Shown piece by piece: positions 1 through 23,371 of a stretch of 27,213 nt of DNA. Below the pieces are notes generated by a model that did no database searches, had not been told where the DNA came from, and saw only the letters and a program-made list of their open reading frames with translations. Position 1 is the stretch's first letter. Each line of letters opens with the position of its first letter. The DNA is taken from assembly GCA_045594165.1 (NCBI GenBank), contig JAZNXZ010000026.1, positions 1-27,213 of the forward strand, given 5' to 3'. A program made the translations under genes and the position numbers. The stretch is from Candidatus Scatosoma sp. (lineage in GTDB: Bacteria; Bacillota; Clostridia; Christensenellales; Borkfalkiaceae).

Positions 1-443
1 TCGGGCTTTTCAAAGCCTACTTCTTCGCTTTCTACGGGGTTGATAATGTGTTTTTTAATCGCAACGAGCTGTTCGTCCGTTACCCCTTTCGCCATGTAAA
101 TTTTAGCGCATTTTACAAGGGGACGCGCTTTTCTTGTGAGCAGCTGTACGCATTGCGCCGCGCTGTCTGCGCGCTGGTCGTATTGCCCCGTCAAATAGCT
201 GACCGCAAACGCCTTATAGCCTGCGGGAATTTCCAAATTTTCAAGATATACGTCGTCTACGGGCGGTTCGGAGAATACGGACGGAATCGCCGCGTTCAAT
301 TCTTCTTCGCTAAGCCCCTCCACGTCGTAACGGAGCACCAAACGGAAATCTTCCGTCTTGATATTAAGGAGCGTTTTAATATCCGACGCCTCTTTTCTTG
401 CCTGTACGTTGTCTTTCTTTTCCACAAAAATTCTGTAAATCAT
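1..443 (-). CDS. purL: Phosphoribosylformylglycinamidine synthase (large clostridial-type PurL), N-terminal 147 aa; truncated by the window edge
   Basis: Not in the ORF track. Manual translation from ATG at 443: MIYRIFVEKKDNVQARKEASDIK...LVLRYDVEGL...SEPPVDDVY...YLTGQYDQRADSAAQCVQLL...IINPVESEEV. AAGGAG RBS overlaps the end of purD; follows purD. Confidence 0.9.
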   Translation of the reverse strand, partial: MIYRIFVEKKDNVQARKEASDIKTLLNIKTEDFRLVLRYDVEGLSEEELNAAIPSVFSEPPVDDVYLENLEIPAGYKAFAVSYLTGQYDQRADSAAQCVQLLTRKARPLVKCAKIYMAKGVTDEQLVAIKKHIINPVESEEVGFEKP

Positions 444-450
444 ATCTCTC

Positions 451-1725
451 TTACTCCTTTGCAACGTCTCTGTATTTAATGCCGATATCCTTGCGGTAGT
501 ACATACCGTCAAAGTGGATTTTTTCGGCGTTTGCATACACCTTTTGACGAGCCTCTTCCACGTCTGCGCCTTTGGCTACGACGCCGAGCACTCTGCCGCC
601 GCTCGTAACCACTTTGCCGTCTTTCATTGCCGTACCCGCGTGGTAAACGGTAACGTCTTTATCCAAATCGCCAAAGGTGATTTCTTTGCCTTTTTCATAG
701 TGTTCGGGATAACCGCCGCTGGCGAGTACCAAGCACACGCACGCGCCGTCCTCCCATTCGATATTGATTTCGTCCAAACGCCCGTCCACGACCGCCTCGA
801 AAATGTCCATGATATCGGTTTTGAGCATGGGCAAAATCACCTGCGTTTCGGGATCGCCAAACCGAGCGTTGTACTCGATTACTTTCATGCCATCTTTCGT
901 TTTCATCAACCCGAAATACAGCACGCCCTTAAAGGTACGCCCCTCGGCGTTCATTGCCGCGACGGTAGGAATCATGATTTTTTCCATTACCTCTTTCGCC
1001 GTCTTTTCGCCGTAGAACGGCGCGGGAGAAAACGTGCCCATACCGCCCGTGTTCAAGCCCTCGTCGTTGTCTTTCGCGCGTTTATGGTCGCAGCTGGTAA
1101 TCATGGGCTTAATCGTCTTGCCGTCGGTAAACGCAAGCGCGGAAACTTCCGGACCGATTAAAAATTCTTCCACGACAACCTTGTTGCCTGCCGTGCCGAA
1201 TTTTTGGTCAAGCATCATTTCTTTCAACCCGTCCTGCGCCTCTTCGCGCGTCATACAAATCAAAACGCCTTTACCAAGCGCCAACCCGTCCGCTTTCAAA
1301 ACCACGGGAATATCGCAGGTTTCTACGTATTTTTTCGCGCTTTCGTAATCGGAAAACGTTTCGTATTTCGCCGTCGGGATATTGTATTTTTTCATCAGCT
1401 CTTTCGAGAACGCTTTGCTAGCCTCGATAATCGCCGCGTTTTTGTTAGGACCAAACGCGCGGTGACCGCGGCTCTGCAATTCGTCCACGAGCCCAAGCGC
1501 CAAAGGATCGTCGGGGGCAACTACCGTAAAGTCGATATCCCCTTTTTGGTCTACCCAATCGCCGACCGCCTTTATATCGCAATAATCGACGTTGACGAGT
1601 TCTGCTATTTCCGCAATCCCTGCGTTGCCTTTCATTGCATAGATTTTATTTACTTTCGGCGATTTTTTCAGAGCCGCAATAATAGCGTGTTCTCTACCGC
1701 CGTTTCCAATAACCAAAACATTCAT
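451..1725 (-). CDS. purD: Phosphoribosylamine-glycine ligase
   Basis: VLVIGNGGREHA, KADGLALGKGV, GLNTGGMG, EYNARFGDPETQ, GGRVL motifs; pur operon context. Confidence 0.98.
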   Translation of the reverse strand: MNVLVIGNGGREHAIIAALKKSPKVNKIYAMKGNAGIAEIAELVNVDYCDIKAVGDWVDQKGDIDFTVVAPDDPLALGLVDELQSRGHRAFGPNKNAAIIEASKAFSKELMKKYNIPTAKYETFSDYESAKKYVETCDIPVVLKADGLALGKGVLICMTREEAQDGLKEMMLDQKFGTAGNKVVVEEFLIGPEVSALAFTDGKTIKPMITSCDHKRAKDNDEGLNTGGMGTFSPAPFYGEKTAKEVMEKIMIPTVAAMNAEGRTFKGVLYFGLMKTKDGMKVIEYNARFGDPETQVILPMLKTDIMDIFEAVVDGRLDEINIEWEDGACVCLVLASGGYPEHYEKGKEITFGDLDKDVTVYHAGTAMKDGKVVTSGGRVLGVVAKGADVEEARQKVYANAEKIHFDGMYYRKDIGIKYRDVAKE

Positions 1726-1746: not shown

Positions 1747-2361
1747 TTAATGGATGCGTACCGTCCGTCCGCATTTTTCAACTTTTCCCTCGCAGAGCAA
1801 TTTTACGCACTCAGGGAGCATGATATGCTCTTCTTTTAATATGCGCGCCTGCAAGCTTTCGGGCGTGTCGTCCGCCATAACGGGTACGCTGCGTTGCATA
1901 ATAATTGCCCCGCCGTCCACGTCCGCCTCAACGAAATGCACCGTCGCGCCGCTGAGTTTTACACCGTATTCGATTGCCGCTTTGTGCACGCGCAAGCCGT
2001 AATAACCCATACCGCAAAAAGAGGGAATCAACGACGGATGAATATTGATAATTGCATTTTCAAATTCCTTGATAAAGCTTGCAGGAACGACCAACAGCCA
2101 ACCTGCAAGGACGATATACTCCACGCCCGCCCCTTTCAAAGTCTTTGCTACGTCCGCGTAAAACTCGTCTTTGTTTGCATACTTTTCCTTATCGTACACA
2201 AAGGGCGTTATGCCGTGCTTTTTTGCACGCTCTATCGCACCGATATCGGGCTTGGACGCCACCAAATATTCAATTTTGCAAAACTGCTCGCGCTCGTTGG
2301 CGTCGATAATCGATTGAAAATCCGTGCCGCCTCCAGACGCAAATACCGCTATTTTTTTCAT
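1747..2361 (-). CDS. purN: Phosphoribosylglycinamide formyltransferase
   Basis: IAVFASGGGTDFQ, INIHPSLIP, GATVHFV..DVDGGAII motifs. Confidence 0.97.
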   Translation of the reverse strand: MKKIAVFASGGGTDFQSIIDANEREQFCKIEYLVASKPDIGAIERAKKHGITPFVYDKEKYANKDEFYADVAKTLKGAGVEYIVLAGWLLVVPASFIKEFENAIINIHPSLIPSFCGMGYYGLRVHKAAIEYGVKLSGATVHFVEADVDGGAIIMQRSVPVMADDTPESLQARILKEEHIMLPECVKLLCEGKVEKCGRTVRIH

Positions 2362-2364
2362 AGT

Positions 2365-3393
2365 TTATTTCAGAATTACTTTCTTGTCGCCAGCAACCGC
2401 TTTACCGATTACCACTACGTCTTCGCCCGTTTCTTTAAGCGACGCCATCGCCGCGTCCACGTCCTTAGAGTCAACGCATACAATCATACCGATACCCATA
2501 TTGAAGGTGTTATAAATCTGTTCGTCGGTGATGCCTGCGCGCTTTTGCATTACTTTGAATACGGGGGGCACGTCGTAGGAATTTTTATCAATTTCCGCCG
2601 AAACGTTTTCGGGTAAAATTCTGGGAATATTTTCAATAAAGCCACCGCCCGTGATGTGCGCGATACCCTTCACCTGCACCTTTTCAATGAGCGTCAAGAT
2701 GCTCTTTACGTAAATACGTGTGGGTTTGAGCAGAACTTCCGCAGCCGTTGCGCCGAGTTCTTCGTCGTATGCCTCCAAAGCCGCTTTGTCGCTGTCGCCG
2801 AACAATTTACGAACGAGCGAATAGCCGTTAGAGTGTACGCCCGTAGATTTCAAACCGATTAAAACGTCGCCAGGTTTGATATCCTTACCGTTGATAACTT
2901 TTTTCTTATCTACGATACCAACCGCAAAACCTGCAAGGTCGTATTCGCCGTCGGGATAGAAACCGGGCATTTCCGCCGTTTCACCACCGATAAGCGCACA
3001 GCCCGCTTGACGGCAACCGTCTGCGATACCCTTAACCACGTCCGCTTCTGCCTCGGGGTACAATCTACCGCATGCGTAATAGTCAAGGAAGAACAAAGGT
3101 TTTGCGCCCTGACATACGATATCGTTTACACACATAGCCACCGCGTCGATACCAATCGTGTCGTGTTTTTCAAGCAAGAAAGCATATTTCAGTTTCGTGC
3201 CTACGCCGTCCGTACCCGCAACCAAAACGGGTTCTTCCATCTTTTCGCCTGCAATCGAATAGAAACCGCCAAACGAACCCAAATCCCCGATTACGTTGTT
3301 ATCGTACGTGGATTTTACGTGTTTTTTCATCAATTCTACCGCTTTGTAACCTCTGGTTACGTCAACGCCACTGTCCTTGTAAGAAATTGCCAT
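2365..3393 (-). CDS. purM: Phosphoribosylformylglycinamidine cyclo-ligase (AIR synthetase)
   Basis: [47 protein letters not shown] motifs. Confidence 0.98.
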
Positions 3394-3411: not shown

Positions 3412-4824
3412 TTATTTTTTACTTTCAGAAATTTTATAATCGTATTTACTTTCGCCGCTGCTCGTCGGGATTTCCGTGGGATACTTACCGTCGAAACACG
3501 CCGCGCAATAGCCCTTGCATTTGCCGCTTTCCGCCAACTTGAACACGTCCTCTACCGACAGGAAACCAACCGAATCCGCCCCAAAGATACGCGCCATTTC
3601 TTCCGTCGTATGATTGCACGCAATCAATACGTCGCGGGATGCGATATCCGTACCGTAATAGCAAGGATTTAAGAACTGCGGCGCGGACGAGCGCACGTGG
3701 ATTTCCGTTGCGCCTGCGTCGCGCAACAATTTTACGACTCTTGCCATCGTCGTTCCGCGGACGATAGAGTCGTCTACCAAGACTACGCGTTTGCCTTTCA
3801 CCGTTTCAACGACGGGGTTCAGCTTGATACGTACCTTGTCCTCACGAACGTTTTGACCAGGGTCGATAAACGTTCTGCCGATATATTTATTTTTAATCAA
3901 GCCCAAACCGTAAGGAATACCCGATTCTTCCGCGTAGCCGATTGCCGCGTCGATACCCGAGTCAGGCGCGCCGATAACGACGTCCGCCTCTACCCCGCAC
4001 GTTCTCGCCAAGAACATACCCGCGCGCTTTCTAGCAAGGTGTACCGAACAATCCGCAATTACCGAGTCGGGACGGGCGGTATAGAGATATTCGAACACGC
4101 AAAGGCGTTCGGGCTTTTGCCCGCAGTTATCTTTTATCGTGCGCATACCATCTTTTGTGAACACAAGGATTTCGCCCGGCTCTAAATCGCGGACGTGCGC
4201 CGCGCCGACCGAAGTGAGTGCGCACGTTTCGCTAGCGATAATATATTCGCCGTCGGCACGCTTGCCATAACAAATGGGATGCACGCCGTTTTCGTCGCGA
4301 GCCGCAATCAGTTTCTGCGGCGACATAACCAACAACGAATATCCGCCTTTCAAACGCTTCATAGCTTTGCAAACCGCCTCTTCAATGGAAGAAGACGTGA
4401 TACGTTCTTTGATGATGACCGCCGAAATGATTTCCGCGTCGTTGCCCGTATGGAAAATCGAGCCCTGCATTTCCATTTCTTCTTTCAGTTCCGCGCTGTT
4501 GACGAGTTTGCCGTCAATGGCAATCGCCATCCTACCTTTGCTGTGATTGACAACGATAGGTTCGGCATTGATGCGGTCTTTCGTAGCCGACGTACCGTAA
4601 CGCACGTTACCGACTGCAATTTGACCTAAGCCCAAGCCTTTCATAACCGAGGGTACGAACACGTCGTTGACCAAGCCTGAATCTTTATACGTATGGAAAA
4701 CCCCGTCGTCGTTGACTACGATACCGCAAGAGGCTTGCCCGCGGTGTTGCAAAGCGTATAATCCGTAGTATACACTAGACGCAACGTCTTCCGTTTTCGT
4801 TCCAAAAATCCCAAATACTGCCAT
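3412..4824 (-). CDS. purF: Amidophosphoribosyltransferase with a degenerate glutaminase domain (no Cys1)
   Basis: LQHRGQ, PRPP loop VDDSIVRGTT, Fe-S cysteines (CVFEY, PCYYG, CAAC). N-terminus reads MAVFGIFG instead of CGVFGI. GGAG RBS upstream. Confidence 0.93.
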   Translation of the reverse strand: MAVFGIFGTKTEDVASSVYYGLYALQHRGQASCGIVVNDDGVFHTYKDSGLVNDVFVPSVMKGLGLGQIAVGNVRYGTSATKDRINAEPIVVNHSKGRMAIAIDGKLVNSAELKEEMEMQGSIFHTGNDAEIISAVIIKERITSSSIEEAVCKAMKRLKGGYSLLVMSPQKLIAARDENGVHPICYGKRADGEYIIASETCALTSVGAAHVRDLEPGEILVFTKDGMRTIKDNCGQKPERLCVFEYLYTARPDSVIADCSVHLARKRAGMFLARTCGVEADVVIGAPDSGIDAAIGYAEESGIPYGLGLIKNKYIGRTFIDPGQNVREDKVRIKLNPVVETVKGKRVVLVDDSIVRGTTMARVVKLLRDAGATEIHVRSSAPQFLNPCYYGTDIASRDVLIACNHTTEEMARIFGADSVGFLSVEDVFKLAESGKCKGYCAACFDGKYPTEIPTSSGESKYDYKISESKK

Positions 4825-4847
4825 AGAATTTCTCCGTTATTTCTTCA

Positions 4848-5336
4848 TTAAAGTAATGCCTGCAAAGCAGCGTCGTCTGCATTGATTTTATCTTTCATTG
4901 CTTTCTTATAATCGTCAAGCTGCGCAGCGATTTCAGGGTACTTAATCCCAAGAATTTGGAGCGCAAGCAAGCCTGCGTTTTCACCGCCGTTGACGCCCAC
5001 CGTCGCCACGGGAATCCCCGAGGGCATCTGCACGATAGACAGCAAACTGTCCAAACCGCCCATCATATCCGTCTTTACCGGCAACCCGATAACCGGGAGA
5101 GTGGTCAGCGCCGCAATAACGCCGCCAAGGTGTGCCGCCTTACCTGCCGCGCAAATCAACACTTCGATTCCACGTTCTTTTGCCGTCGCAGCAAACTCGT
5201 GCGCCTCGTCCGGAGTACGGTGCGCGGAAATTACACGAACTTCCGTTTCCACACCGAATTTTTTCAGCACGGAAACCGCAGGTTTTACCACGTCAAAGTC
5301 CGATTTACTGCCCATCAAAATACCGACTTTACTCAT
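4848..5336 (-). CDS. purE: N5-CAIR mutase / AIR carboxylase catalytic subunit
   Basis: ILMGSKSD, SAHRTP, AGKAAHLGG, SIVQMPSGIPVATV motifs. Start moved from 5351 to ATG 5336, which has a GAGGAG RBS. Confidence 0.97.
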   Translation of the reverse strand: MSKVGILMGSKSDFDVVKPAVSVLKKFGVETEVRVISAHRTPDEAHEFAATAKERGIEVLICAAGKAAHLGGVIAALTTLPVIGLPVKTDMMGGLDSLLSIVQMPSGIPVATVGVNGGENAGLLALQILGIKYPEIAAQLDDYKKAMKDKINADDAALQALL

Positions 5337-5365
5337 AACAATTCTCCTCACTAAATGTAATTAAT

Positions 5366-5400
5366 AAATCAAAATGGAGCGCAATTTTTATTGCACTCCA
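5366..5400 (-). terminator. Intrinsic terminator / putative attenuator in the pur operon leader
   Basis: Minus strand TGGAGTGCAAT-AAAA-ATTGCGCTCCA (11-bp stem, one G-U) followed by TTTTGATTT, ~30 nt upstream of the purE start. Confidence 0.75.
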
Positions 5401-5537
5401 CCCATTATATCGTTATTTTTGCGCGAAAAAACGCCATTTATGCCTACCGAAATAAGCCCGCATCTTCCCAGCTGGATTCTGCGTGCGGAAAACGTCTTAT
5501 AGCCCTTTTGTTTTCCCCATACTTCGATAATCTGCAT
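5388..5537 (-). CDS. Possible 49-aa leader peptide (MQIIEVWGKQKGYKTFSARRIQLGRCGLISVGINGVFSRKNNDIMGGVQ)
   Basis: Manual translation. AAGGA lies 7 nt before the ATG and the stop codon falls at the terminator loop. No homology recognised; could be a chance ORF. Confidence 0.3.
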   Translation of the reverse strand: MQIIEVWGKQKGYKTFSARRIQLGRCGLISVGINGVFSRKNNDIMGGVQ

Positions 5538-5636
5538 ACCGTAGTCCTTCTTCTTTCGCCGTTAAATTTTTTCCCGTTTTCCCCTAATTTGCATTATCCG
5601 CGTCCTCGCCGTCCAATACAAATTGCATACAAAAAT

Positions 5637-5665
5637 ATTATACAGCAATTTGCCGCGCAAGTCAA
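5637..5665 (-). promoter_or_regulatory. Sigma-A promoter of the pur operon
   Basis: TTGACT-17 bp-TATAAT on the minus strand. Confidence 0.8.
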
Positions 5666-5743
5666 GTATTTGATGGAAGTTTTCCGCGACCAAATTATAG
5701 ATTATATACTTTTCTATCTTTTTAATACTTTCCCTAAAAGCAC

Positions 5744-6253
5744 TTAAAAGGTGCGCGCGCCAAGAATATGCAAACAGCGCAAACGGGCAAACGAATAGTT
5801 CGTCAAAGGACGGTTGAACGCGTCATAGGTATGCGCAGCCAAAAGCGGCACGCCGTCTAAAAAGCCGACCACAACGGGCGTATGGTAGAAATCCCCCGTT
5901 TCCCTGCCCAGCTGTACAAAATCACCAATCTCTAAACCTTCCATCCCAACCTCGATAGCAAACGGTCCAGCGCCGTTGCCTATCCCCGCTGACGTATCGT
6001 TGTTACCCACCAAAAAGCGGTAAAAATATTCCACGCCCGTCCACGCAGCCGCACGGTCGCTTGCCGCGCGATAAAACCAACCCAGATCGGGCGTGTAATT
6101 CATTACGCCGCAGCCTGCAAACAAACATTGCGACGCAAAATTCGTACAATCGCCGCCGATTACGTCAAAATTGTAGTAGGCAGGATTTCGCGAAAATGCC
6201 CATTTTCTAGCATAATCCAACGCCGCTTGGCGATTATAAGGTATTTTTCTCAT
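5744..6253 (-). CDS. Putative amidase domain protein (Amidase_6-like), 169 aa
   Basis: YNRQAALDYARKWA..RNPAY...GGDCTNFASQCL, GDFVQL, YHTPVV, AAHT pattern. Start moved to ATG 6253 because the longer frame overlaps the upstream gene and terminator. Confidence 0.8.
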   Translation of the reverse strand: MRKIPYNRQAALDYARKWAFSRNPAYYNFDVIGGDCTNFASQCLFAGCGVMNYTPDLGWFYRAASDRAAAWTGVEYFYRFLVGNNDTSAGIGNGAGPFAIEVGMEGLEIGDFVQLGRETGDFYHTPVVVGFLDGVPLLAAHTYDAFNRPLTNYSFARLRCLHILGARTF

Positions 6254-6301
6254 ATTCCTATTGTATGCATGTTCAGATGCGGAACGTGCGATTTTTTCGA
6301 C

Positions 6302-6334
6302 AAAAACAGCTCTGCGTATATGCCGCAGAGCCGT
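6302..6334 (-). terminator. Intrinsic terminator after the Gfo/Idh/MocA gene
   Basis: Minus strand ACGGCTCTGCG-loop-CGCAGAGCTGT followed by TTTT. Confidence 0.75.
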
Positions 6335-6350
6335 TCCTTGTTTTATGCAA

Positions 6351-7535
6351 TTACTTCTTTTCCGAGCCAAAGGTATTACCCATGTCTGCGGCTACCGTTT
6401 CCACTACGTCTTTTTTGCGAGACGTAGCACGGCGTTTGTTAAGTTCAGCAAGGTATTCGTCCTCGTTGACAGGCAACGTGATCTCTTCGCCGTTTCTCCA
6501 ACCCGAGAGTTCCATTGCGTTCATAAGTTCCACGCCGTTGAAACCGTCTTGACCGTCTACGAACAATTCTTCCAAGCCCAATAACGTGTTGGCAAAGTTG
6601 TTGATAATGCCTGCGTGTTGAGGGTTTTTGCCGTCCGTTTCCACCTCGATAATTTCCATTTTCGGCATCGCAAAGCCGTTATCCGCAGAATAGCTATGTT
6701 CCTGCGCATCCGTTTCGTTTTTATACCAAACAAGTTTATTGTTTTCGCAAAGGAGTTTTCCTTTCGTCCCCGAAATTTCCAAACGGTTGGTACCGGGAGC
6801 TTCGCCCGTCGTTGTGATAAATACGCCCGTAGCGCCGTTTTCATAGGTCAAGAACGCCGTTACTTCGTCCTCCACCTCAATATCGTGCCATCTGCCGTAT
6901 TGACAGAATCCGCGTACCGTCTTGGGCATCTGTCCTACAACCCATTGAATCAGGTCTATTTGGTGCGGGCTTTGGTTAATCAAAACGCCACCGCCTTCGC
7001 CGTCCCACGTCGCGCGCCAGCTACCGTTGTCGTAATAATTTTGCGTTCTGTACCAGTTGGTAATAATCCAAGTGATACGCTGCAAATTACCGATACCGCC
7101 CTCAGCAATGATTTCGCGCATTTTGCGGTATACGCAGTTGGTACGCTGATTGAACATCATACCGAATTTGGTGTCACATTTTGCTGCAAGTTCATTCATT
7201 TCACGAACTTCTTTCGTGTATACGCCTGCGGGTTTTTCACAGATGACGGGCATGCCGTTCTTCAAGCAATATTTTACGATTTCCGTATGTGAATAGTGCG
7301 GCGTTTCCACCAAAACTGCGTCGCAAATACCGCTTTGTACCATTTCCTTATAATCGTGGAAATACACGATACTGTCGTCTTTCAATTTTTCTTTAATTGC
7401 GGCAATTTTTACGTCGCTGATATCGCAAATCGCCGAAACGACGCCGTTTTCAATTTCGCCTGCTGCAAACAGACTATTTGCATAATACGTACCTTGGTTG
7501 CCCACACCTACAATACCAAATCTAATCTTTTTCAT
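6351..7535 (-). CDS. Gfo/Idh/MocA family NAD-dependent oxidoreductase
   Basis: Rossmann GIVGVGNQG, ETPHYSH, CEKP, GGGVLINQSPHQID motifs. Confidence 0.92.
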   Translation of the reverse strand: MKKIRFGIVGVGNQGTYYANSLFAAGEIENGVVSAICDISDVKIAAIKEKLKDDSIVYFHDYKEMVQSGICDAVLVETPHYSHTEIVKYCLKNGMPVICEKPAGVYTKEVREMNELAAKCDTKFGMMFNQRTNCVYRKMREIIAEGGIGNLQRITWIITNWYRTQNYYDNGSWRATWDGEGGGVLINQSPHQIDLIQWVVGQMPKTVRGFCQYGRWHDIEVEDEVTAFLTYENGATGVFITTTGEAPGTNRLEISGTKGKLLCENNKLVWYKNETDAQEHSYSADNGFAMPKMEIIEVETDGKNPQHAGIINNFANTLLGLEELFVDGQDGFNGVELMNAMELSGWRNGEEITLPVNEDEYLAELNKRRATSRKKDVVETVAADMGNTFGSEKK

Positions 7536-7557
7536 TGTTTTTTACCCCTTTACGTCC

Positions 7558-8412
7558 TTATTTTACAAATTCGTCGCCGACTTCTTCAAAGCCTGCGTCT
7601 TTTAATAACCCTTTGAGTGCCGCCACCGCCGCGTCAAACGCCTCGTCTGCGGTACGGAATTCAAACTCGTGTTTCATAACCGTCTTGTCAATCAGAGAAT
7701 ACCCCTCGAAAATCGAAAGATGAGGTTCAAGCGTAAACGTCTTATCTGACGTAATCGTTTTCAAAATATCGCCGATCTTGCCGTCGCCAACGCCTGCAGG
7801 TACAAGCGAACCGCTCTCTACGATAACGTCCTTGACGTGATAATAATCGATTTTACCTGCAAAAATACGTTGCGTATCCTCTGCTTTTTCGCCGCATTGC
7901 AAGTAGTTTGCAGGATCGTAAATATGGTACAGACCAGGCACGTTTTCCATGATATCCACGACACGTGCCGCCACGTCGCCGTAAATATCCTTTTCGTTTT
8001 CGTGGTACAAGCCCACGTTGTATTCCTTGGCGATCGCTACCATCTTTTTAAGACGGCTGATTACTTCGTCGCGTTTATCATACGCCTGAAAAAAGCTGAA
8101 CATACGGATTTTATCCGTGCCGAGCGCGTTTGCGATTTCGCAAGTATGGCGCAAAATTTCTTCCGTCTTTTCAAACGGGTCGTCAATGTGCGATTTACCG
8201 ATAGGCGAACCGATTGACCATACCGCCAAGCCGTTGTCCGCCAAGGTTTGACGAATCTCTTTTGCCTCTTCCACCGTCAGCGTCGTAACGTTTTTACCGT
8301 TGACCGTACGCATTTCCATATAGGGTACGTTGTTGCGCTTTAACGCCGCAATCTGTCCGTCCAACGCGCTGGACGCCTCGTCGCTGAATGCACAAAGTTT
8401 TACTTTAATCAT
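7558..8412 (-). CDS. Sugar phosphate isomerase/epimerase (xylose isomerase-like TIM barrel)
   Basis: SIGSPIGK, HENE, YDPANY, HVKD..G.GDG, TLEPH metal-binding pattern. Confidence 0.88.
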   Translation of the reverse strand: MIKVKLCAFSDEASSALDGQIAALKRNNVPYMEMRTVNGKNVTTLTVEEAKEIRQTLADNGLAVWSIGSPIGKSHIDDPFEKTEEILRHTCEIANALGTDKIRMFSFFQAYDKRDEVISRLKKMVAIAKEYNVGLYHENEKDIYGDVAARVVDIMENVPGLYHIYDPANYLQCGEKAEDTQRIFAGKIDYYHVKDVIVESGSLVPAGVGDGKIGDILKTITSDKTFTLEPHLSIFEGYSLIDKTVMKHEFEFRTADEAFDAAVAALKGLLKDAGFEEVGDEFVK

Positions 8413-8425
8413 ACTTATTCTCCTA

Positions 8426-9991
8426 TTAAATACCGTAATTATTAAATCTTTCTTCGTAAAGATAATATTTTTCAGACAAACGGTTTAAGAGCATCACGGG
8501 GATCACCTCTACGTGATGTCTGCCGTATTCTTCCACCATAATCAAAATGCGGTTGTGTGCCGAAATCTTTTCAGGCGCGGTAAGCACAATGTCTACCGCC
8601 TCCGAGTTGTACGTATTTTCGCTAATGCACCACCACTGCGGAACGAACACGTCAAATTCTTCCGCGCTTGCCGACCAACCGTCGGGCAACAGCAACGAAA
8701 CCTTGACGTTGTGCGATTGTTGACCGAACGCTTTCAAACGGTTTTGGAACATAATGGAAATACGTTTTTCTTCCCCTGCCTTGGCATACGGGCCGTCGTG
8801 AACGGTCACGAGGGCGTACGTCGCGCCGCAATTTTTAACAATCGTGTTCGGATTTTTTAACGTTAAGACGGAAACCGCCATTTCTTCCGATTCTTCGCTC
8901 TGTCCGTAAGGCAATGCAAAATATTCGATATCGCTATCCGTAAATTCGCTGTCTTCGCCGTAAACGAATTCGGGTACCTTTGCAAAGTGCCCTTTCATCT
9001 GATAGGTAACCATGGGCGCAAGTTTTACGACCTTTTCCGTCAAATTCGTGCACGTGCCAACAAACGGGAATGCCGCACCTTGGGTGATACTGCACGTCAC
9101 GATTTTATCGCCGATATATTCTTCCCAATCCTTAGGAATACCTGCCGTGCCGTACATGATACCCAGTACCGAGCCGACCGTACCTGCCGTACAATCGGTA
9201 TCGTCGCCGCAATTCACAGCCAAAAGCATGGATTTTTTGAAATCGCCTTCGCCGTACAAAAGACCGAGCGTCGCATAACCCACGTTGGAGGGCGCGCAGA
9301 ACCAACCGTCGCCGATGTCTTCATTTTCCTTGAAAATCGCGTCGCAAGCGTCCGTTGCAGGCACGCCTTTGTCGTAGCAATCCAAAATCAAACGTACGGT
9401 GCGCGCCATACGGCAATCGTACGGGATTTTTGCCAAACCGATTTCGATAAGCTTGCGCAAATCGCTAACCACGAACGCCGCGCTTTCCAACGCCGCAACG
9501 AACATAGCGGCATACGTACCCTCGCCGTTGCCGTGGTCAACCTTGGCGTCCTCAATAGCGTATCTTACCGCCATGTCGGGCTGTGCAGGGAAAAGCGTCG
9601 CCCAAATTTCCGTACGGATCCAAGCGCCGTTAGAATGTTTTAATCTGTCGTTGTTGACCGTTTCACCCGAAAGCGGAGGCACAATACCGATTTGCATGTT
9701 TTTAAGCGCAACCGAGTATTCGCCTGCGTACATGGTAATATAGGAAAGCCAATAATCACCCAAAACGTCCGCCGTGAGGTGTTTGGGACCTTCCATTTCC
9801 ATCGCGTGCAACCAAACGAGCTGTAAATCCAAATCATCGTTGGGGAGCGGCTCGCCCTTTTCGGTTACAAAACCCGTAATGTTCAATTTTTTGCGTACGC
9901 CCTCGAAAGGACCGCCCAACGTGCCGCCGATATTTTTACCGATCCAGCAAGCACGAACTTTGTCTTTGTAAACGTCGTAATTGAGTTTCAT
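8426..9991 (-). CDS. ADP-ribosylglycohydrolase family protein with a C-terminal extension, 521 aa
   Basis: GKNIGGTLG, PNDDLDLQL, SNGAWIR, NCGDDTDCTAGTVG motifs. Start moved to ATG 9991 (AAAGGTGG RBS). Confidence 0.88.
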   Translation of the reverse strand: MKLNYDVYKDKVRACWIGKNIGGTLGGPFEGVRKKLNITGFVTEKGEPLPNDDLDLQLVWLHAMEMEGPKHLTADVLGDYWLSYITMYAGEYSVALKNMQIGIVPPLSGETVNNDRLKHSNGAWIRTEIWATLFPAQPDMAVRYAIEDAKVDHGNGEGTYAAMFVAALESAAFVVSDLRKLIEIGLAKIPYDCRMARTVRLILDCYDKGVPATDACDAIFKENEDIGDGWFCAPSNVGYATLGLLYGEGDFKKSMLLAVNCGDDTDCTAGTVGSVLGIMYGTAGIPKDWEEYIGDKIVTCSITQGAAFPFVGTCTNLTEKVVKLAPMVTYQMKGHFAKVPEFVYGEDSEFTDSDIEYFALPYGQSEESEEMAVSVLTLKNPNTIVKNCGATYALVTVHDGPYAKAGEEKRISIMFQNRLKAFGQQSHNVKVSLLLPDGWSASAEEFDVFVPQWWCISENTYNSEAVDIVLTAPEKISAHNRILIMVEEYGRHHVEVIPVMLLNRLSEKYYLYEERFNNYGI

Positions 9992-10050
9992 AAAACCACC
10001 TTTCACTAAATATTGAAAACGGATTTTTGCCATATTTTCCGTTCTACGAT

Positions 10051-10203: not shown

Positions 10204-13200
10204 TTACGCTGCGTCGTTACCGCTGGAAGGATTTGCCCAGTAAACGTTAATTACTTCAGGATTATCATTTTGTGCTGCCAAACCTACGCCGAACGCCGTT
10301 GCGCCTTCACCGTACCATCTCAATTCGTAAACGGTATTTGCCACGAAGCTGGTTGCCTGCGTGCCGTCCATGTTGTATGCAACTACGTTAAGGCCCGTAG
10401 GGCAACCGTTTGCATTACCGTCGGAAAGGAGGTAACCACCACCGCCTTGGTTTACGCCGTCGATATAATACCAGCAGAAGAAGATGTAGGAGCTGTAACC
10501 CGTAATATCTCTGGATACTGCAAACTGAATGCTTGCGTAGTCGTCTTCTGCGTTCTTATAAATCATGGTCTTTTGATTTTCCATGCTAAGACCGAGAACA
10601 CTACCTGCGCTCCACATACTCGTACGAGCGTCTTGCGTTGCCGTGAATACCGTCGTGCCTGCTTCGAAACCGAGTTCGGTTACGTCGCCTGCATACTTGG
10701 AAGTCACACACTTGGTCGTATTTTCGAACTGTACCATCGTAGCGTCCTGCGTATAGGTGATACCCGTAGGCCATTCGGTAAGAGCCGTCGTGCCATCATC
10801 CGAGTAACCAATTACGTTAACGCTTGCAGCCTTGATGGAAACGTTGTCGTATACGATATTTTCGCCCGTATGTTGGTAACCTAATGCAACATTCAACGCA
10901 ATACCCGTTGCCTCAACTTCAACGTTCGTAAACGTGCTTACGTTAGCCGTCTGGAAACGGTTAGAGAACAACGCAACGTTCTTCCAGTCTTTGTGTTCCA
11001 TTTGGTCGATAACAACCTTAACGTTGGAAACGGTAATGTTATCCGCCCAGTGAGCAAAGAGCCCGAAGTATTGACCCCAGTTTTGGTTATTGTTATAACC
11101 CTGACCGCAGCTAGAACCGTGATATCTAACGCCTGCGAAGGTTACGTTCTTAACCGTTGCGCGATACATACCGCCGAAGATACCGCCTTCGGAAACGATT
11201 ACGTTGTTAACAATATGACCGAGACCGTCGACCGTACCACGGAAGTAGGACTTGTATTGAGTGTAACCTGCTGCGAAATAAATGCCCGAAGCGTCGATAT
11301 CGTTAGCAATTACGTAGTAACCTTCTACGTCGTTGCCTGCAACGTCAGAGTTACCTTGACCTTGCTTAACGCCGTCAACCGTTCTACCACCTACACCGAG
11401 AGCCTGCAATTCTTGCGCAGTCTTAATAATAGCGTCTGCACCGATTGCTTTCAGGTAATAAGTATCGTTTTCATGGGTGTATACGACAACGTCGTATTCG
11501 GTACCGACAGCAAAGTCTGCGTCGTACATACCGGTATTGCCGTCAAGACTGCCAACGGTGTCGCTGTAAATGAGCGTACCATCGACATAGATATATTTTA
11601 CCGTACCGTTGATATCATCGGGCAAGGTATACGAACCCGTTGCCGGCAAGAGGATGATATATTCATCCGATTCGTATGCGTTACCGTAGGTGATATCGCC
11701 GAAGTTCAAGATTGCAGAGCTTTCTGCACTAGTATCAAACGTACTTACCGCAATTGCCGACGTGTCGCCGTTGAGGAATACACGCAAGGTGTATACCGTA
11801 TTCGCTGCGAGCGAAGCAACATCAGCACCCTGTGCATCGAGAATGTAAGCCTTTCTTTCCGATGCGCCGTTTGCAGGCGTACAGCCAGCTGCGTTAACGG
11901 TGTAGTTACCAGTAAGAATGCTTGCATTCGTACCGTATGCCCATACGCAGAGCGAGTAAACCGTACGGTCGCCCGTGAACGAGAATTCTACGTCTACGTA
12001 GTCGTACTTAACGTTGCCGTATAAGCCGACGCGGTTGCCCCAAGCGTCGCCCGCAAGCGATACCTGCGTAACAGTCGAACCTGCGTCGAAGCCGAGCGCC
12101 GTTACGTCGCCTTCATACTTAGGAAGAAGAGCACCCGTTGCACTGGTATATACGTCGTTCTGTACGTCGAAGTTGCCCCATCTTGCGCTGGAAATGTAGT
12201 AGGTTTGTGCCGTACCCGTACCGAAGTGCAAGAATTTCAGCGTTTCGCCTTCTGCAAAGCATACGCGAATCGTATAGAACGTATTTGCCTCAAAACCGCT
12301 AGTGTACTGCGCTGCAAAGGTGTTGCCGTTTGCATCCCATACGTGTACGCTTCTGATTACGCTGTTGGTAGGATTCATCTGCGCACCGTAGATACCAAAG
12401 CTACCTTGCGTACCGCTACCGTTGGAAGGCCATGCCGTAAACGCACTTACTTTCACGGTAGGATATACGTCGAATTCTACGTAATCGAAATTATCCGAAT
12501 CTGCAGGGATAAGGATTCTATCCGTCCAAAGGTTGGTATTTACGATTTCGTAAACCGCATCGCTTGCCTTGAAGCCCATCGACGTCGTATCGCCGGTGTA
12601 TGCCGTCAATTCTACGTTGCTGGTGTTTTGAATTGCAACACCCGTAACGTCAGGAACCTTAACGGTTGCCGACATAACGTAGGTATCGCCATCCGTAATA
12701 ACGGTCATAACTTTACCTGCGCCAGCCGTCAATTCAACGTCGATTGCAACGTCTTTGCCGTTGAGGCTGCCGGTGGTGCTGCTGTAAACAACAGCACCGT
12801 CAACCATAATTGCTTTTACCGTACCTTCGATTGCATCAGGCAACGTGAACGTGCCGTCTTCAACCGAGATTTCTACTGTTTCATTAACTTCGACTTCGTT
12901 ACCGAAGGTAATGTCACCGAAGTTCAAGATTGCCGAGCTTTCTGCACTGGTATCGAACGTACTTACTGCAAGCGTAGACGCGTCGCCGTTGAGATATACA
13001 CGCATGATGTATACCGTATTCGCCGCATACGCATTTACCGTATTGCCGTTCGTATCGAATACCTGAATCGTTCTTGCCGATGCGTTGTTTGCAGGTACGC
13101 CGCCCGTAGGAGTAACGGTGTAGTTACCGGTAAGAATGCTTGCGTCCGTGCCGTATGCCCATACGCAGAGCGAGTAAACCGTACGGTCACCCGTGAACGA

Positions 13201-23247: not shown

Positions 23248-23260
23248 CCTTTTCTCCTCC

Positions 23261-23371
23261 TTAATCGTCCCAAACTTCGCCACCGTAGTTGTCGTTATCC
23301 GATAACGTCACAATGTCGTCTTGCTCGAACATGACCACCAACAGCTTAAGCTCTTCGTAGTTTTTCATCAT
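23261..23371 (-). CDS. Small acidic peptide, 36 aa (MMKNYEELKLLVVMFEQDDIVTLSDNDNYGGEVWDD)
   Basis: Not in the ORF track. Strong AGGAGG RBS 6 nt before the ATG. Its stop TAA overlaps the AAGGAGG RBS of the giant gene. Confidence 0.75.
   Translation of the reverse strand: MMKNYEELKLLVVMFEQDDIVTLSDNDNYGGEVWDD

What the first reader, a model, noticed from the sequence alone, without database searches (positions are those of the whole stretch)
3412..4848. PurF with a dismantled glutaminase site: possible ammonia-only entry into purine synthesis
Seen: the gene starts ATG GCA GTA TTT GGG (MAVFG) where PurF has CGVFG. An in-frame stop lies 5 codons upstream, so no Cys can be supplied. The glutamine-site motifs are also changed: GHVRY to GNVRY, QP to EP, HNGN to IDGK, SDTE to NDAE. 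The PRPP loop and Fe-S cysteines are intact. Established: Cys1 is the Ntn nucleophile, and Cys1 mutants of PurF lose glutamine-dependent but keep NH3-dependent activity. Inference: several coordinated changes point to relaxed selection on glutaminase function in a still-used enzyme, which would suit an ammonium-rich habitat. An in-frame mini-ORF ATG AAG AAA TAA at 4848-4837 may be a relic of a propeptide start.
Basis: partly seen in the sequence, partly recalled or inferred. Interest (0 to 1): 0.7.

Follow-up and report, generated by a model that had tools for sequence, protein, structure and literature searches.

The report
Cysteine-less PurF, probably ammonia-fed
The only gene for the first purine-synthesis enzyme in this animal-gut bacterium has lost the cysteine that takes nitrogen from glutamine. 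The gene is still strongly conserved, so the enzyme most likely uses free ammonia, and two other enzymes in the same lineage have lost their glutamine-splitting parts in the same way.

Summary
purF (3412-4824, minus strand) starts M-A-V-F-G. The initiator Met sits where Cys1 should be, and no Cys can be supplied from upstream. Four independent gut-metagenome assemblies and 136 distinct relatives share this start.

The Cys-less proteins form one clade (support 100/100) nested among Cys-bearing Clostridia PurFs. It is the only purF in 22 genomes that are at least 90% complete, and it sits in a purE-F-M-N-D-L operon.

This is not decay. dN/dS is 0.03-0.14 in the former glutaminase half. The changes at universally conserved sites (G2A, E31A, H73N, Q88E, N104D, F249T) are themselves fixed in the clade. 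N-to-D and Q-to-E also recur in other Cys-less PurF lineages.

The same lineage has CarA with the catalytic Cys changed to Gly, a GuaA without its glutaminase domain, and no CTP synthase. Its Cys-PurF relatives keep all three.

Best reading (0.7): an obligately ammonia-dependent phosphoribosylamine synthase. No enzyme assay exists. The mini-ORF is a strain-specific insertion, not a propeptide relic.

This scan has noted Cys-less PurFs before on other DNA, probably including this clade. The only published parallel I found is the untested crenarchaeal PurF'.

The parts
3412..4824 (-). purF coding sequence (470 aa plus stop): a Cys-less amidophosphoribosyltransferase homologue
   Evidence: TIGR01134 scores 460.5 bits against a cut-off of 350. 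E = 9e-126 to B. subtilis PurF 1ao0. The AlphaFold model has pLDDT 88.5 and TM 0.88-0.91 to 1ao0.
4819..4824 (-). Start codon ATG at the Cys1 position, followed by GCA (Ala2 in place of Gly2)
   Evidence: M1 and A2 are invariant in 136 clade sequences, against C in 137/137 and G in 131/137 Cys-type PurFs.
4832..4835 (-). GGAG ribosome-binding site, 7 nt upstream of the ATG
   Evidence: A GGAG at a similar distance is present in relatives.
4837..4848 (-). Mini-ORF ATGAAGAAATAA in the purE-purF spacer: a strain-specific insertion with no function inferred
   Evidence: Absent from L051, L053 and L054 (91-94% identical proteins). Five substitutions at 4840-4847 in run X5.
4120..4824 (-). Former Ntn glutaminase domain (residues 1-235): retained, remodelled and under purifying selection
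   Evidence: PF13537 and PF13522 match. dN/dS is 0.03-0.14. The N/C amino-acid divergence ratio is 1.75, against about 1.0 in Cys-type PurFs.
4732..4734 (-). Ala31, replacing the conserved Glu/Asp after LQHRGQ
   Evidence: A in 136/136 clade sequences, against E119 and D11 of 137 Cys-type PurFs.
4597..4608 (-). N73-V-R75-Y76: His to Asn is fixed, while Arg and Tyr of the glutamine loop are retained
4558..4563 (-). E88-P89: the Gln of the QP motif is changed to Glu and fixed
   Evidence: E in 136/136, against Q in 135/137. The same change occurs in 3 other Cys-less lineages.
4507..4518 (-). I103-D104-G105-K106, replacing H-N-G-N (the oxyanion-hole Asn is now Asp)
   Evidence: D in 135/136, against N in 136/137. 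Position 103 is variable (L/I/M/H/F). K in 126/136. N-to-D also occurs in 8 of 15 other Cys-less representatives.
4432..4443 (-). N128-D129-A130-E131, replacing S-D-T-E; Asp129 and Glu131 are retained
4078..4080 (-). Thr249, replacing the conserved Phe of the Y-x-Y-F-(A/S)-R-P-D-S motif
   Evidence: T in 136/136, against F in 127/137.
3748..3789 (-). PRPP-binding loop RVVLVDDSIVRGTT (residues 346-359), intact
3496..3507 (-). C440-A-A-C443, two of the four [4Fe-4S] ligands (the others are C242 at 4099-4101 and C388 at 3661-3663)
   Evidence: All four fall in Cys columns that are invariant or nearly so in Cys-type PurFs.
4848..5351 (-). purE, the upstream operon neighbour
   Evidence: TIGR01162 scores 207.6 bits.
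2365..3393 (-). purM
   Evidence: TIGR00878 scores 443.9 bits.
1747..2361 (-). purN
   Evidence: TIGR00639 scores 196 bits.
451..1725 (-). purD, which consumes phosphoribosylamine
   Evidence: TIGR00877 scores 528.4 bits.
3..443 (-). 5' part of the single-chain purL (runs off the window)
   Evidence: TIGR01857 matches. The full-length 1233-aa orthologue in L051 keeps the glutaminase motif GICNGFQ.

Best explanation
This is the lineage's working PurF, converted into an obligately ammonia-dependent PRPP aminotransferase. The PRTase half still binds PRPP and makes phosphoribosylamine for the adjacent PurD. The former Ntn glutaminase half can no longer hydrolyse glutamine, for three reasons. It has no nucleophile: the start codon sits on the Cys1 position, and after Met removal the chain probably begins at Ala2. 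The oxyanion-hole Asn is Asp. The Glu/Asp and His that support glutamine use are gone.

The domain is kept under selection. Inferred reasons are that it holds the Fe-S cluster and the fold together, and that it forms the entrance and wall of the internal ammonia channel, through which free NH3/NH4+ now reaches PRPP.

Shown: the sequence state, its fixation, sole-copy status, operon context, purifying selection, and the parallel losses in CarA and GuaA. Inferred: the catalytic activity, the nitrogen source, and the route of ammonia.
For: Sequence and family:
- M1/A2 replace C1/G2, and an in-frame stop lies upstream.
- TIGR01134 scores above its cut-off.
- The fold model matches 1ao0 at TM 0.88-0.91.
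- The PRPP loop and Fe-S ligands are intact.

Real and inherited:
- Four independent assemblies agree at the start.
- 136 distinct sequences share the state.
- They form a single clade (100/100) nested among Cys-type PurFs of the same group.

Sole copy:
- There is one purF in this MAG.
- In a 121-genome sample, about 90 species carry only this type, including 22 genomes at least 90% complete.

Pathway:
- The operon is purE-F-M-N-D-L here and in relatives.
- purH and purC were found in four near-complete genomes, and purB above its cut-off in three of them.

Selection:
- dN/dS is 0.03-0.14 in the N domain and 0.03-0.06 in the C domain.
- Six universally conserved sites are fixed to new residues, and none became variable.

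Lineage context:
- All 14 Cys-less genomes checked have CarA with Cys changed to Gly and the His lost. All 12 Cys-type CarA copies (from 11 Cys-PurF genomes plus a contig of the mixed bin G035) keep both residues.
- GuaA is about 330 aa without the GATase domain in Cys-less genomes, and full length in Cys-type genomes.
- GDH and a type III GlnA are present, and no Amt was found.

Habitat:
- The DNA is found in animal gut metagenomes from several studies, and a close relative comes from a ruminant-gut MAG.

Literature:
- E. coli PurF Cys1 mutants lose glutamine-dependent activity but keep ammonia-dependent activity, as summarised in PMC3261824.
Against: No biochemical data exist for any natural Cys-less PurF. 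The ammonia activity is inferred from mutants of other species.

Residues that bind the alpha-carboxylate and alpha-amino groups of glutamine in canonical enzymes (Arg75, Thr78, Asp129; their roles are recalled, not tested here) are retained. Tyr76 is also retained. So the pocket may still bind an amino-acid-like ligand.

The organism has not abandoned glutamine amidotransfer in general. PurL and HisH keep their catalytic Cys, and so does GlmS where it is present in the clade.

This genome is a 72%-complete MAG, so absences in it rest on more complete relatives.

No measurement of ammonia in the habitat is available.
Confidence: 0.7

Rival explanations
1. The enzyme is still glutamine-dependent by another route. 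Either an unlinked glutaminase delivers NH3 to it, or the remodelled pocket (new carboxylates E88 and D104, with R75, T78 and D129 retained) hydrolyses glutamine or another amide without a Cys nucleophile.
For: The glutamine-binding Arg75, Thr78 and Asp129 are retained, and so is Tyr76. The N domain is under strong purifying selection. The new residues are fixed and partly convergent. Glutamine is still made, because a type III GlnA is present.
Against: No glutaminase-like gene lies in or beside the operon, here or in relatives. The only class I GATase-domain proteins in the genomes checked are HisH and a Cys-less CarA. The same lineage removed the glutaminase function from CarA and GuaA, which argues for a general switch to ammonia. 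I know of no precedent for carboxylate-driven glutamine hydrolysis in an Ntn fold (recollection).
Confidence: 0.1
2. The protein is a pseudoenzyme or a repurposed protein, for example a regulator, a scaffold for PurD, or a different PRPP-dependent reaction. Phosphoribosylamine would then come from another route or from salvage.
For: Cys-less PurF-like paralogues do coexist with canonical PurF elsewhere. G023 carries both. Crenarchaeal PurF' also sits beside a canonical PurF. Spontaneous and side-pathway PRA formation is documented (PMC7668255).
Against: Here it is the sole copy, and it sits in the purF slot of a conserved operon. The PRPP loop, the catalytic PRTase half and the Fe-S ligands are intact, with C-domain dN/dS of 0.03-0.06. 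The rest of the de novo pathway is maintained, which would be pointless without a first step.
Confidence: 0.1
3. The gene is in neutral decay on its way to loss, in a reduced-genome organism that salvages purines.
For: Genomes of the clade are small, mostly 1.2-1.7 Mb (some up to about 2.6 Mb). They have also lost PyrG, and some have lost GlmS. The N domain evolves about 1.75 times faster than the C domain.
Against: The reading frame is intact in about 90 species and 136 distinct sequences, with dN/dS well below 1 in both halves and no conserved site gone variable.
Confidence: 0.03
4. The Cys codon was lost through an assembly error or a wrong start call.
For: PurF start sites have been mis-called in archaeal genomes (PMC3261824).
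Against: An in-frame stop lies 5 codons upstream with no Cys codon between it and the start. Four independent assemblies agree. The upstream sequence varies among relatives while M-A-V-[FL]-G is invariant, often with a stop 1-2 codons upstream.
Confidence: 0.01

Closest known systems
Bacillus subtilis-type [4Fe-4S] glutamine PRPP amidotransferase (PurF, EC 2.4.2.14; PDB 1ao0, 1gph; TIGR01134)
   Same: It has the same two-domain fold (TM 0.88-0.91) and 45% identity. The PRPP loop, the four Fe-S cysteines and the place in the pur operon are the same.
   Different: It has no propeptide and no Cys1. Gly2 is Ala, the oxyanion-hole Asn is Asp, and the H, Q and E/D residues of the glutamine site are replaced. 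The known glutaminase chemistry is therefore impossible.
Engineered Cys1 mutants of E. coli and B. subtilis PurF (Zalkin laboratory work, as summarised in PMC3261824)
   Same: These mutants lack the nucleophile, and are reported to retain NH3-dependent PRA synthesis. This is the functional model for the present protein.
   Different: They are single laboratory substitutions in an otherwise intact glutamine site. Here the state is natural and fixed in a species-rich clade, and it comes with at least five further fixed changes.
Crenarchaeal PurF' (Brown et al. 2011, PMC3261824)
   Same: It is a natural PurF homologue lacking the N-terminal Cys (Ala or Val instead). It lies near purine genes and was hypothesised to be ammonia-dependent, but this was never tested.
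   Different: PurF' is a second copy beside a canonical PurF in each genome. Here the Cys-less protein is the only PurF. It is bacterial and arose recently from within Cys-bearing Clostridia PurFs. No archaeal PurF' sequence was included in my tree.
Other Cys-less bacterial PurF homologues
   Same: They lack Cys1, with Ser, Gly or nothing at that position. They keep the PRPP loop and mostly keep the Fe-S ligands. Eight of the 15 also have N-to-D at the oxyanion position, and three have Q-to-E.
   Different: They lie on separate long branches, not in this clade. At least one (G023) is a paralogue beside a canonical PurF.
Ammonia-dependent carbamoyl-phosphate synthetase I of mitochondria (PDB 5dot, 6uel)
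   Same: It shows the same evolutionary logic: a glutaminase-type domain is retained in an enzyme annotated as ammonia-dependent. It matches this genome's own Cys-less CarA. That its catalytic Cys is lost is recalled, not tested here.
   Different: It is a different enzyme with a class I GATase fold. It is an analogy only.

Membership tests
PurF / amidophosphoribosyltransferase (TIGR01134, homology family) | Whole-protein HMM score above the curated cut-off | tested here: met
   460.5 bits against a cut-off of 350, with model positions 2-432 matched.
PurF / amidophosphoribosyltransferase (TIGR01134, homology family) | N-terminal class II (Ntn) GATase fold plus C-terminal type I PRTase fold | tested here: met
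   PF13537, PF13522 and PF00156 match. The model has pLDDT 88.5 and TM 0.88-0.91 to 1ao0 and 1gph.
PurF / amidophosphoribosyltransferase (TIGR01134, homology family) | PRPP-binding loop (DDSIVRGTT) | tested here: met
   Residues 351-359 are conserved here and in all clade members.
PurF / amidophosphoribosyltransferase (TIGR01134, homology family) | Four Cys ligands of the [4Fe-4S] cluster (B. subtilis type) | tested here: met
   C242, C388, C440 and C443 are aligned and invariant.
PurF / amidophosphoribosyltransferase (TIGR01134, homology family) | Genomic place among de novo purine genes | tested here: met
   The order is purE-purF-purM-purN-purD-purL.
Glutamine-hydrolysing amidotransferase, class II (functional class, EC 2.4.2.14) | N-terminal nucleophile Cys1 with a free alpha-amino group | tested here: not met
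   The initiator Met is at the Cys1 position, Ala2 follows, and an in-frame stop lies upstream. The role of the nucleophile is described in PMC9140057.
Glutamine-hydrolysing amidotransferase, class II (functional class, EC 2.4.2.14) | Oxyanion-hole Asn-Gly | tested here: not met
   Asn is replaced by Asp104 (135/136 in the clade, against N in 136/137 Cys-type PurFs). Gly105 is kept.
Glutamine-hydrolysing amidotransferase, class II (functional class, EC 2.4.2.14) | Supporting residues for glutamine use (acidic residue after HRGQ; His before Asn-Gly) | tested here: not met
   E/D is replaced by Ala31 (136/136). His is replaced by Ile103 here, and this position varies within the clade. That these are the residues implicated by mutagenesis is recalled, not tested.
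Glutamine-hydrolysing amidotransferase, class II (functional class, EC 2.4.2.14) | Glutamine-dependent activity | not testable with these tools
   This needs an enzyme assay.
Crenarchaeal PurF' (Brown et al. 2011) | Lacks the N-terminal Cys | tested here: met
Crenarchaeal PurF' (Brown et al. 2011) | Second copy that coexists with a canonical PurF | tested here: not met
   It is the sole purF in G000 and in 22 clade genomes at least 90% complete.
Crenarchaeal PurF' (Brown et al. 2011) | Membership of the PurF' sequence cluster | not tested
   No archaeal PurF' sequences were fetched. The clade is nested in bacterial Cys-type PurFs, which makes common descent with PurF' unlikely.

The most novel reading that the evidence does not exclude
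The dead glutamine pocket has been rebuilt into an ammonium-capture site. After Cys1 was lost, selection fixed two amide-to-carboxylate changes in the pocket: the oxyanion-hole Asn became Asp104, and the Gln of the QP motif became Glu88. Selection also altered a conserved aromatic residue (F249T). On this reading the enzyme recruits NH4+, deprotonates it, and passes NH3 down the pre-existing channel to PRPP.

The same N-to-D and Q-to-E changes in independent Cys-less PurF lineages would then be convergent adaptation. Asn104 persists in one early-branching member (G007), so N-to-D may have arisen twice within this clade. The lineage as a whole, with Cys-less CarA, GATase-less GuaA and no PyrG, would be a natural case of nucleotide synthesis rewired from glutamine to free ammonia.
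Probability: 0.3. Interest if true: 0.75.

Novelty: new variant of a known kind. Interest (0 to 1): 0.6.

Why it matters
PurF is a textbook glutamine amidotransferase, and its ammonia-dependent activity is usually treated as a laboratory curiosity of Cys1 mutants. Here a species-rich clade of herbivore and animal-gut Clostridia relies on a naturally Cys-less PurF as its only first step of purine synthesis. The same clade has disabled or deleted the glutaminase parts of carbamoyl-phosphate synthase and GMP synthase.

If the activity is confirmed, three things follow:
- Glutamine-independent nucleotide synthesis would be a real ecological strategy in ammonia-rich guts.
- Genome-scale metabolic models and automatic annotations that label these genes "glutamine-hydrolysing" would need correcting.
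- The clade is recent and has well-sampled Cys-bearing sisters, so it shows which residues change when an ammonia channel enzyme switches from internal to external ammonia.

Tried and rejected
- **Assembly or start-site error:** rejected.
- **Second, Cys-bearing purF:** none in G000. None in 22 clade genomes at least 90% complete. G090 carries both types, but its Cys-type copy lies on a 4.4-kb contig together with a full-length GuaA, so this looks like a mixed bin. G035 (6% contamination) likewise has two CarA types.
- **Mini-ORF as a propeptide relic:** rejected.
- **Excess of stem-branch substitutions in the N domain:** not significant, 15/112 against 14/134, Fisher p = 0.55. The signal lies at universally conserved sites, not in overall counts.
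- **Expression:** no RNA holder was listed among the sequencing runs. This says nothing about expression.
- **Riboswitch in the leader:** the Rfam scan of 4800-6400 found nothing.
- **Literature:** six full-text searches found no description of a bacterial Cys-less PurF serving as the sole PurF. Only the crenarchaeal PurF' hypothesis turned up. The library lacks most subscription papers, so this is not proof that none exists.
- **Spatial clustering of the fixed substitutions:** could not be measured, because the model's coordinates are not exposed to scripts.
- **General abandonment of glutamine amidotransfer:** rejected. PurL, HisH and (where present) GlmS keep their catalytic Cys.
- **Amt loss as a trait specific to the Cys-less clade:** rejected. 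Amt is also missing from 10 of the 11 Cys-type relatives, and G004 has only fragments.
Full report
**1. The observation**

The minus-strand ORF 3412-4824 encodes 470 residues and starts M-A-V-F-G. The same frame upstream reads M-K-K-stop-R-R-N-S. An in-frame stop therefore lies five codons before the Met, with no Cys codon in between. A GGAG at 4832-4835 sits 7 nt before the ATG.

The protein scores 460.5 bits on the purF equivalog TIGR01134 (cut-off 350). It aligns end to end with B. subtilis PurF at E = 9e-126. In that alignment Met1 lies on Cys1 and Ala2 lies on Gly2.

- GHVRY reads GNVRY.
- QP reads EP.
- AHNGN reads AIDGK.
- SDTE reads NDAE.

One further change was not listed: the acidic residue after LQHRGQ is Ala31. 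The PRPP loop and the four Fe-S cysteines are intact.

An AlphaFold model built on a 44-sequence alignment has mean pLDDT 88.5. It superposes on 1ao0 and 1gph with TM 0.88-0.91. The only low-confidence internal stretches are 78-80 and 316-323. From recollection, these correspond to the mobile glutamine loop and the PRTase loop of canonical PurF.

**2. Not an artefact**

Contigs from four public gut-metagenome runs in four studies cover the start region and show no difference at 4819-4824. All 121 nearest 90%-identity clusters (79-100% identical) begin MAV[FL]G.

Across species the DNA upstream of the ATG varies freely, often with a stop one or two codons before it. The five-residue start is invariant.

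**3. A single, recent, species-rich origin**

I built a maximum-likelihood tree of 66 PurFs. The Cys-less (MA) sequences form one clade with 100/100 support on a stem of 0.34 substitutions per site. The clade is nested among Cys-bearing PurFs with propeptides (...EECGVFG) from the same taxonomic group. The nearest of these are 62-64% identical.

I also scanned an evenly drawn sample of 121 species genomes of the genus:
- About 90 carry only the MA type (445-472 bits).
- About 15 carry the Cys type (505-532 bits).
- 22 MA-type genomes are at least 90% complete, and none has a second purF above the cut-off.

The window's own MAG (72% complete) has one purF.

**4. Context**

The gene lies in the operon purE-purF-purM-purN-purD-purL, both here and in relatives. 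Four near-complete clade genomes have purH and a purC homologue (over the cut-off in one), and three of them have purB above the cut-off. The de novo pathway is therefore maintained, and this is its only candidate first enzyme.

**5. Selection**

Pairwise Nei-Gojobori dN/dS is 0.03-0.14 in the former glutaminase half (residues 2-235) and 0.03-0.06 in the PRTase half. At equal C-domain divergence, the N half accumulates about 1.75 times as many amino-acid changes as the C half in the MA clade. In Cys-type PurFs the ratio is about 1.0. Constraint on the N half is loosened but remains strong.

I compared 136 MA sequences with 137 Cys-type sequences, looking at columns at least 90% conserved in the Cys type:
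- Six columns are fixed to a different residue in the MA clade: C1M, G2A, H73N, Q88E, N104D and F249T.
- No column has become variable.
- E31A and N106K are also essentially fixed.
- Arg28-Gly29, Arg75-Tyr76, Thr78, Gly105, Asp129 and Glu131 are retained.

This is the signature of a new constrained state, not of drift.

The clade has two subclades. The window's subclade has also lost His103 and gained Lys106. The other subclade keeps His103, and its earliest branch (G007) still has Asn104.

**6. Convergence**

Among the 150 nearest 50%-identity representatives, 15 others lack Cys1, with Ser, Gly or a shortened N-terminus instead. They sit on separate long branches. Eight of them have Asp at the oxyanion Asn position, and three have Glu at the QP Gln. 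In Cys-type sequences the figures are 0/137 for Asp and 0/137 for Glu.

At least two origins are independent: the MA clade and at least one other lineage. I could not resolve how many more there are.

**7. A lineage-wide pattern**

I compared the Cys-less genomes with their Cys-type relatives in the same genus.

| Feature | Cys-less PurF genomes | Cys-type PurF genomes |
|---|---|---|
| CarA catalytic residues | Cys changed to Gly, His changed to variable residues, in 14 of 14 checked | GICLGHQ and HPE kept in all 12 copies (11 genomes plus a contig of the mixed bin G035) |
| GuaA | About 330 aa, matching only positions ~190-512 of the 512-position model | Full length |
| PyrG (CTP synthase) | Not found in 14 of 14 genomes at least 93% complete | Present in 11 of 11 |

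In a few Cys-less genomes, residual similarity to GuaA runs upstream through stop codons.

The glutaminase loss is selective, and nitrogen metabolism looks like this:
- The only other class I GATase-domain protein in the genomes checked is HisH, which keeps its Cys.
- PurL keeps GICNGFQ.
- GlmS is missing from four genomes at least 95% complete that do have a NagB-like gene. In seven other clade genomes GlmS is present with MCGIVG.
- GDH and a type III glutamine synthetase are present.
- No intact Amt transporter was found in any of 26 genomes of either type; G004 has only fragments.

**8. Habitat**

The stretch is held by animal gut metagenome runs from several studies. A 92%-identical protein comes from a MAG of a ruminant gastrointestinal data set, and another from a JGI metagenome. 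That such habitats are rich in ammonia is general knowledge and was not measured here.

**9. Mechanism**

The starting points are established. Class II amidotransferases hydrolyse glutamine with the N-terminal Cys, whose free alpha-amine acts as the base (PMC9140057). E. coli PurF with Cys1 replaced loses glutamine-dependent activity but keeps ammonia-dependent activity, as summarised in PMC3261824.

I infer the following:
- Met1 is removed, because Ala is in the second position, so the chain starts at the Gly2-equivalent Ala.
- Glutamine cannot be hydrolysed.
- Free ammonia enters through the vacated pocket and the interdomain channel to attack PRPP.
- PurD takes the phosphoribosylamine.

The loss of the propeptide fits this reading. 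In canonical B. subtilis-type enzymes, propeptide removal depends on Cys1 (recollection).

The fixed amide-to-acid changes (N104D, Q88E) suggest an ammonium-recruiting pocket. This is the most novel reading, and I put it at about 0.3.

**10. The mini-ORF**

ATGAAGAAATAA (4837-4848) arises from an insertion of about 9 nt in the purE-purF spacer. It is absent from relatives at 91-94% protein identity, and it differs at five positions in one run. It is not a propeptide relic.

**11. Comparison with what is known**

By descent this is a PurF. By function it fails the defining features of a glutamine-hydrolysing amidotransferase.

The nearest published parallel I found is the crenarchaeal PurF'. 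That is a Cys-less second copy beside a canonical PurF, proposed but never tested as ammonia-dependent. The differences here are that the protein is the sole copy, it is bacterial, it was recently derived, and CarA and GuaA lost their glutaminase parts alongside it.

Six full-text searches found no description of such bacterial enzymes.

This scan has noted Cys-less PurFs on other DNA many times (49 notes). One of those notes probably concerns this same herbivore-gut Clostridia clade. These are unchecked AI notes. I re-tested their claims on this genome rather than relying on them.

**12. Verdict**

Ammonia-only PurF is the best reading. "Relaxed selection" needs correcting to "remodelled and constrained". 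The mini-ORF idea is rejected.
- Confidence in ammonia-dependent PRA synthesis is 0.7.
- Novelty: a new variant of a known kind.
- Interest: 0.6.

Noticed in passing
G000 contig C105 (locus L063:386-1465:+), with orthologues L068-L080: The carbamoyl-phosphate synthase small subunit CarA has its catalytic Cys replaced by Gly (GIGLGHQ) and its catalytic His replaced by variable residues. This holds in all 14 Cys-less-PurF genomes checked. All 12 Cys-type CarA copies (11 Cys-PurF genomes plus a contig of the mixed bin G035) keep GICLGHQ and HPE.
   Followed up: yes
G000 contig C145 (locus L064:111-1112:-); genus scan: GMP synthase GuaA is only 333 aa and lacks the whole glutaminase domain (model positions about 190-512 matched). 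No separate GuaA glutaminase subunit was found, and the only small GATase is HisH. In G054, G056, G051, G016 and G112 the match extends upstream through stop codons, which may be relics of the deleted domain.
   Followed up: partly
Whole genomes G000, G086, G016, G094, G076, G001, G089, G120, G099, G088, G055, G117, G113, G131, G132: No CTP synthase (PyrG, TIGR00337) was found in 14 Cys-less-PurF genomes at least 93% complete, nor in G000. All 11 Cys-PurF relatives have it. How these organisms make CTP is unexplained.
   Followed up: partly
Whole genomes G086, G016, G094, G076 (at least 95% complete) and G000: No GlmS was found, but a NagB-like glucosamine-6-phosphate deaminase is present. This could be ammonia-dependent GlcN6P synthesis running in reverse. 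Other clade genomes do have GlmS with an intact MCGIVG start. No intact Amt ammonium transporter was found in any of 26 genomes of either PurF type (G004 has only fragments).
   Followed up: partly
window 10204-23283 (-): A single 4359-aa open reading frame lies here. The homologous gene in relative L051 carries a DUF4838 hit. It looks like a giant, probably secreted, glycan-related protein next to the pur region.
   Followed up: no
window 6351-10033 (-): Three genes lie upstream of the pur operon: an ADP-ribosylglycohydrolase-family protein (535 aa), an AP_endonuc_2/TIM-barrel protein (by Pfam of the orthologue in L051), and a Gfo/Idh/MocA oxidoreductase. The same order is conserved in relatives L051 and L053.
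   Followed up: no
window 4800-6400: No Rfam family matches the long leader upstream of purE at E up to 1. No known purine, ZTP or PRPP riboswitch is recognisable there.
   Followed up: partly
G023 contig C4 (locus L025) and contig C1 (locus L067): A genome of another family in the same order carries a Cys-less PurF paralogue (K-P-V-F-G at the Cys1 position, with N-to-D and Q-to-E) together with a canonical propeptide-bearing PurF (EECGVFG).
   Followed up: partly
window 3517-3519 (residue Cys436): The Cys-less clade has an extra invariant Cys (C436, 136/136) four residues before the C440-x-x-C443 Fe-S ligands. Most Cys-type PurFs have a gap or other residues at this position.
   Followed up: no
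G063:C2, G068:C72, G110:C1, G081:C15, G043:C5: Weak PurF-like frames of about 480-510 aa (158-176 bits, model positions about 74-422) occur in several genomes of the genus. They are probably a different, divergent PurF-like paralogue family.
   Followed up: no
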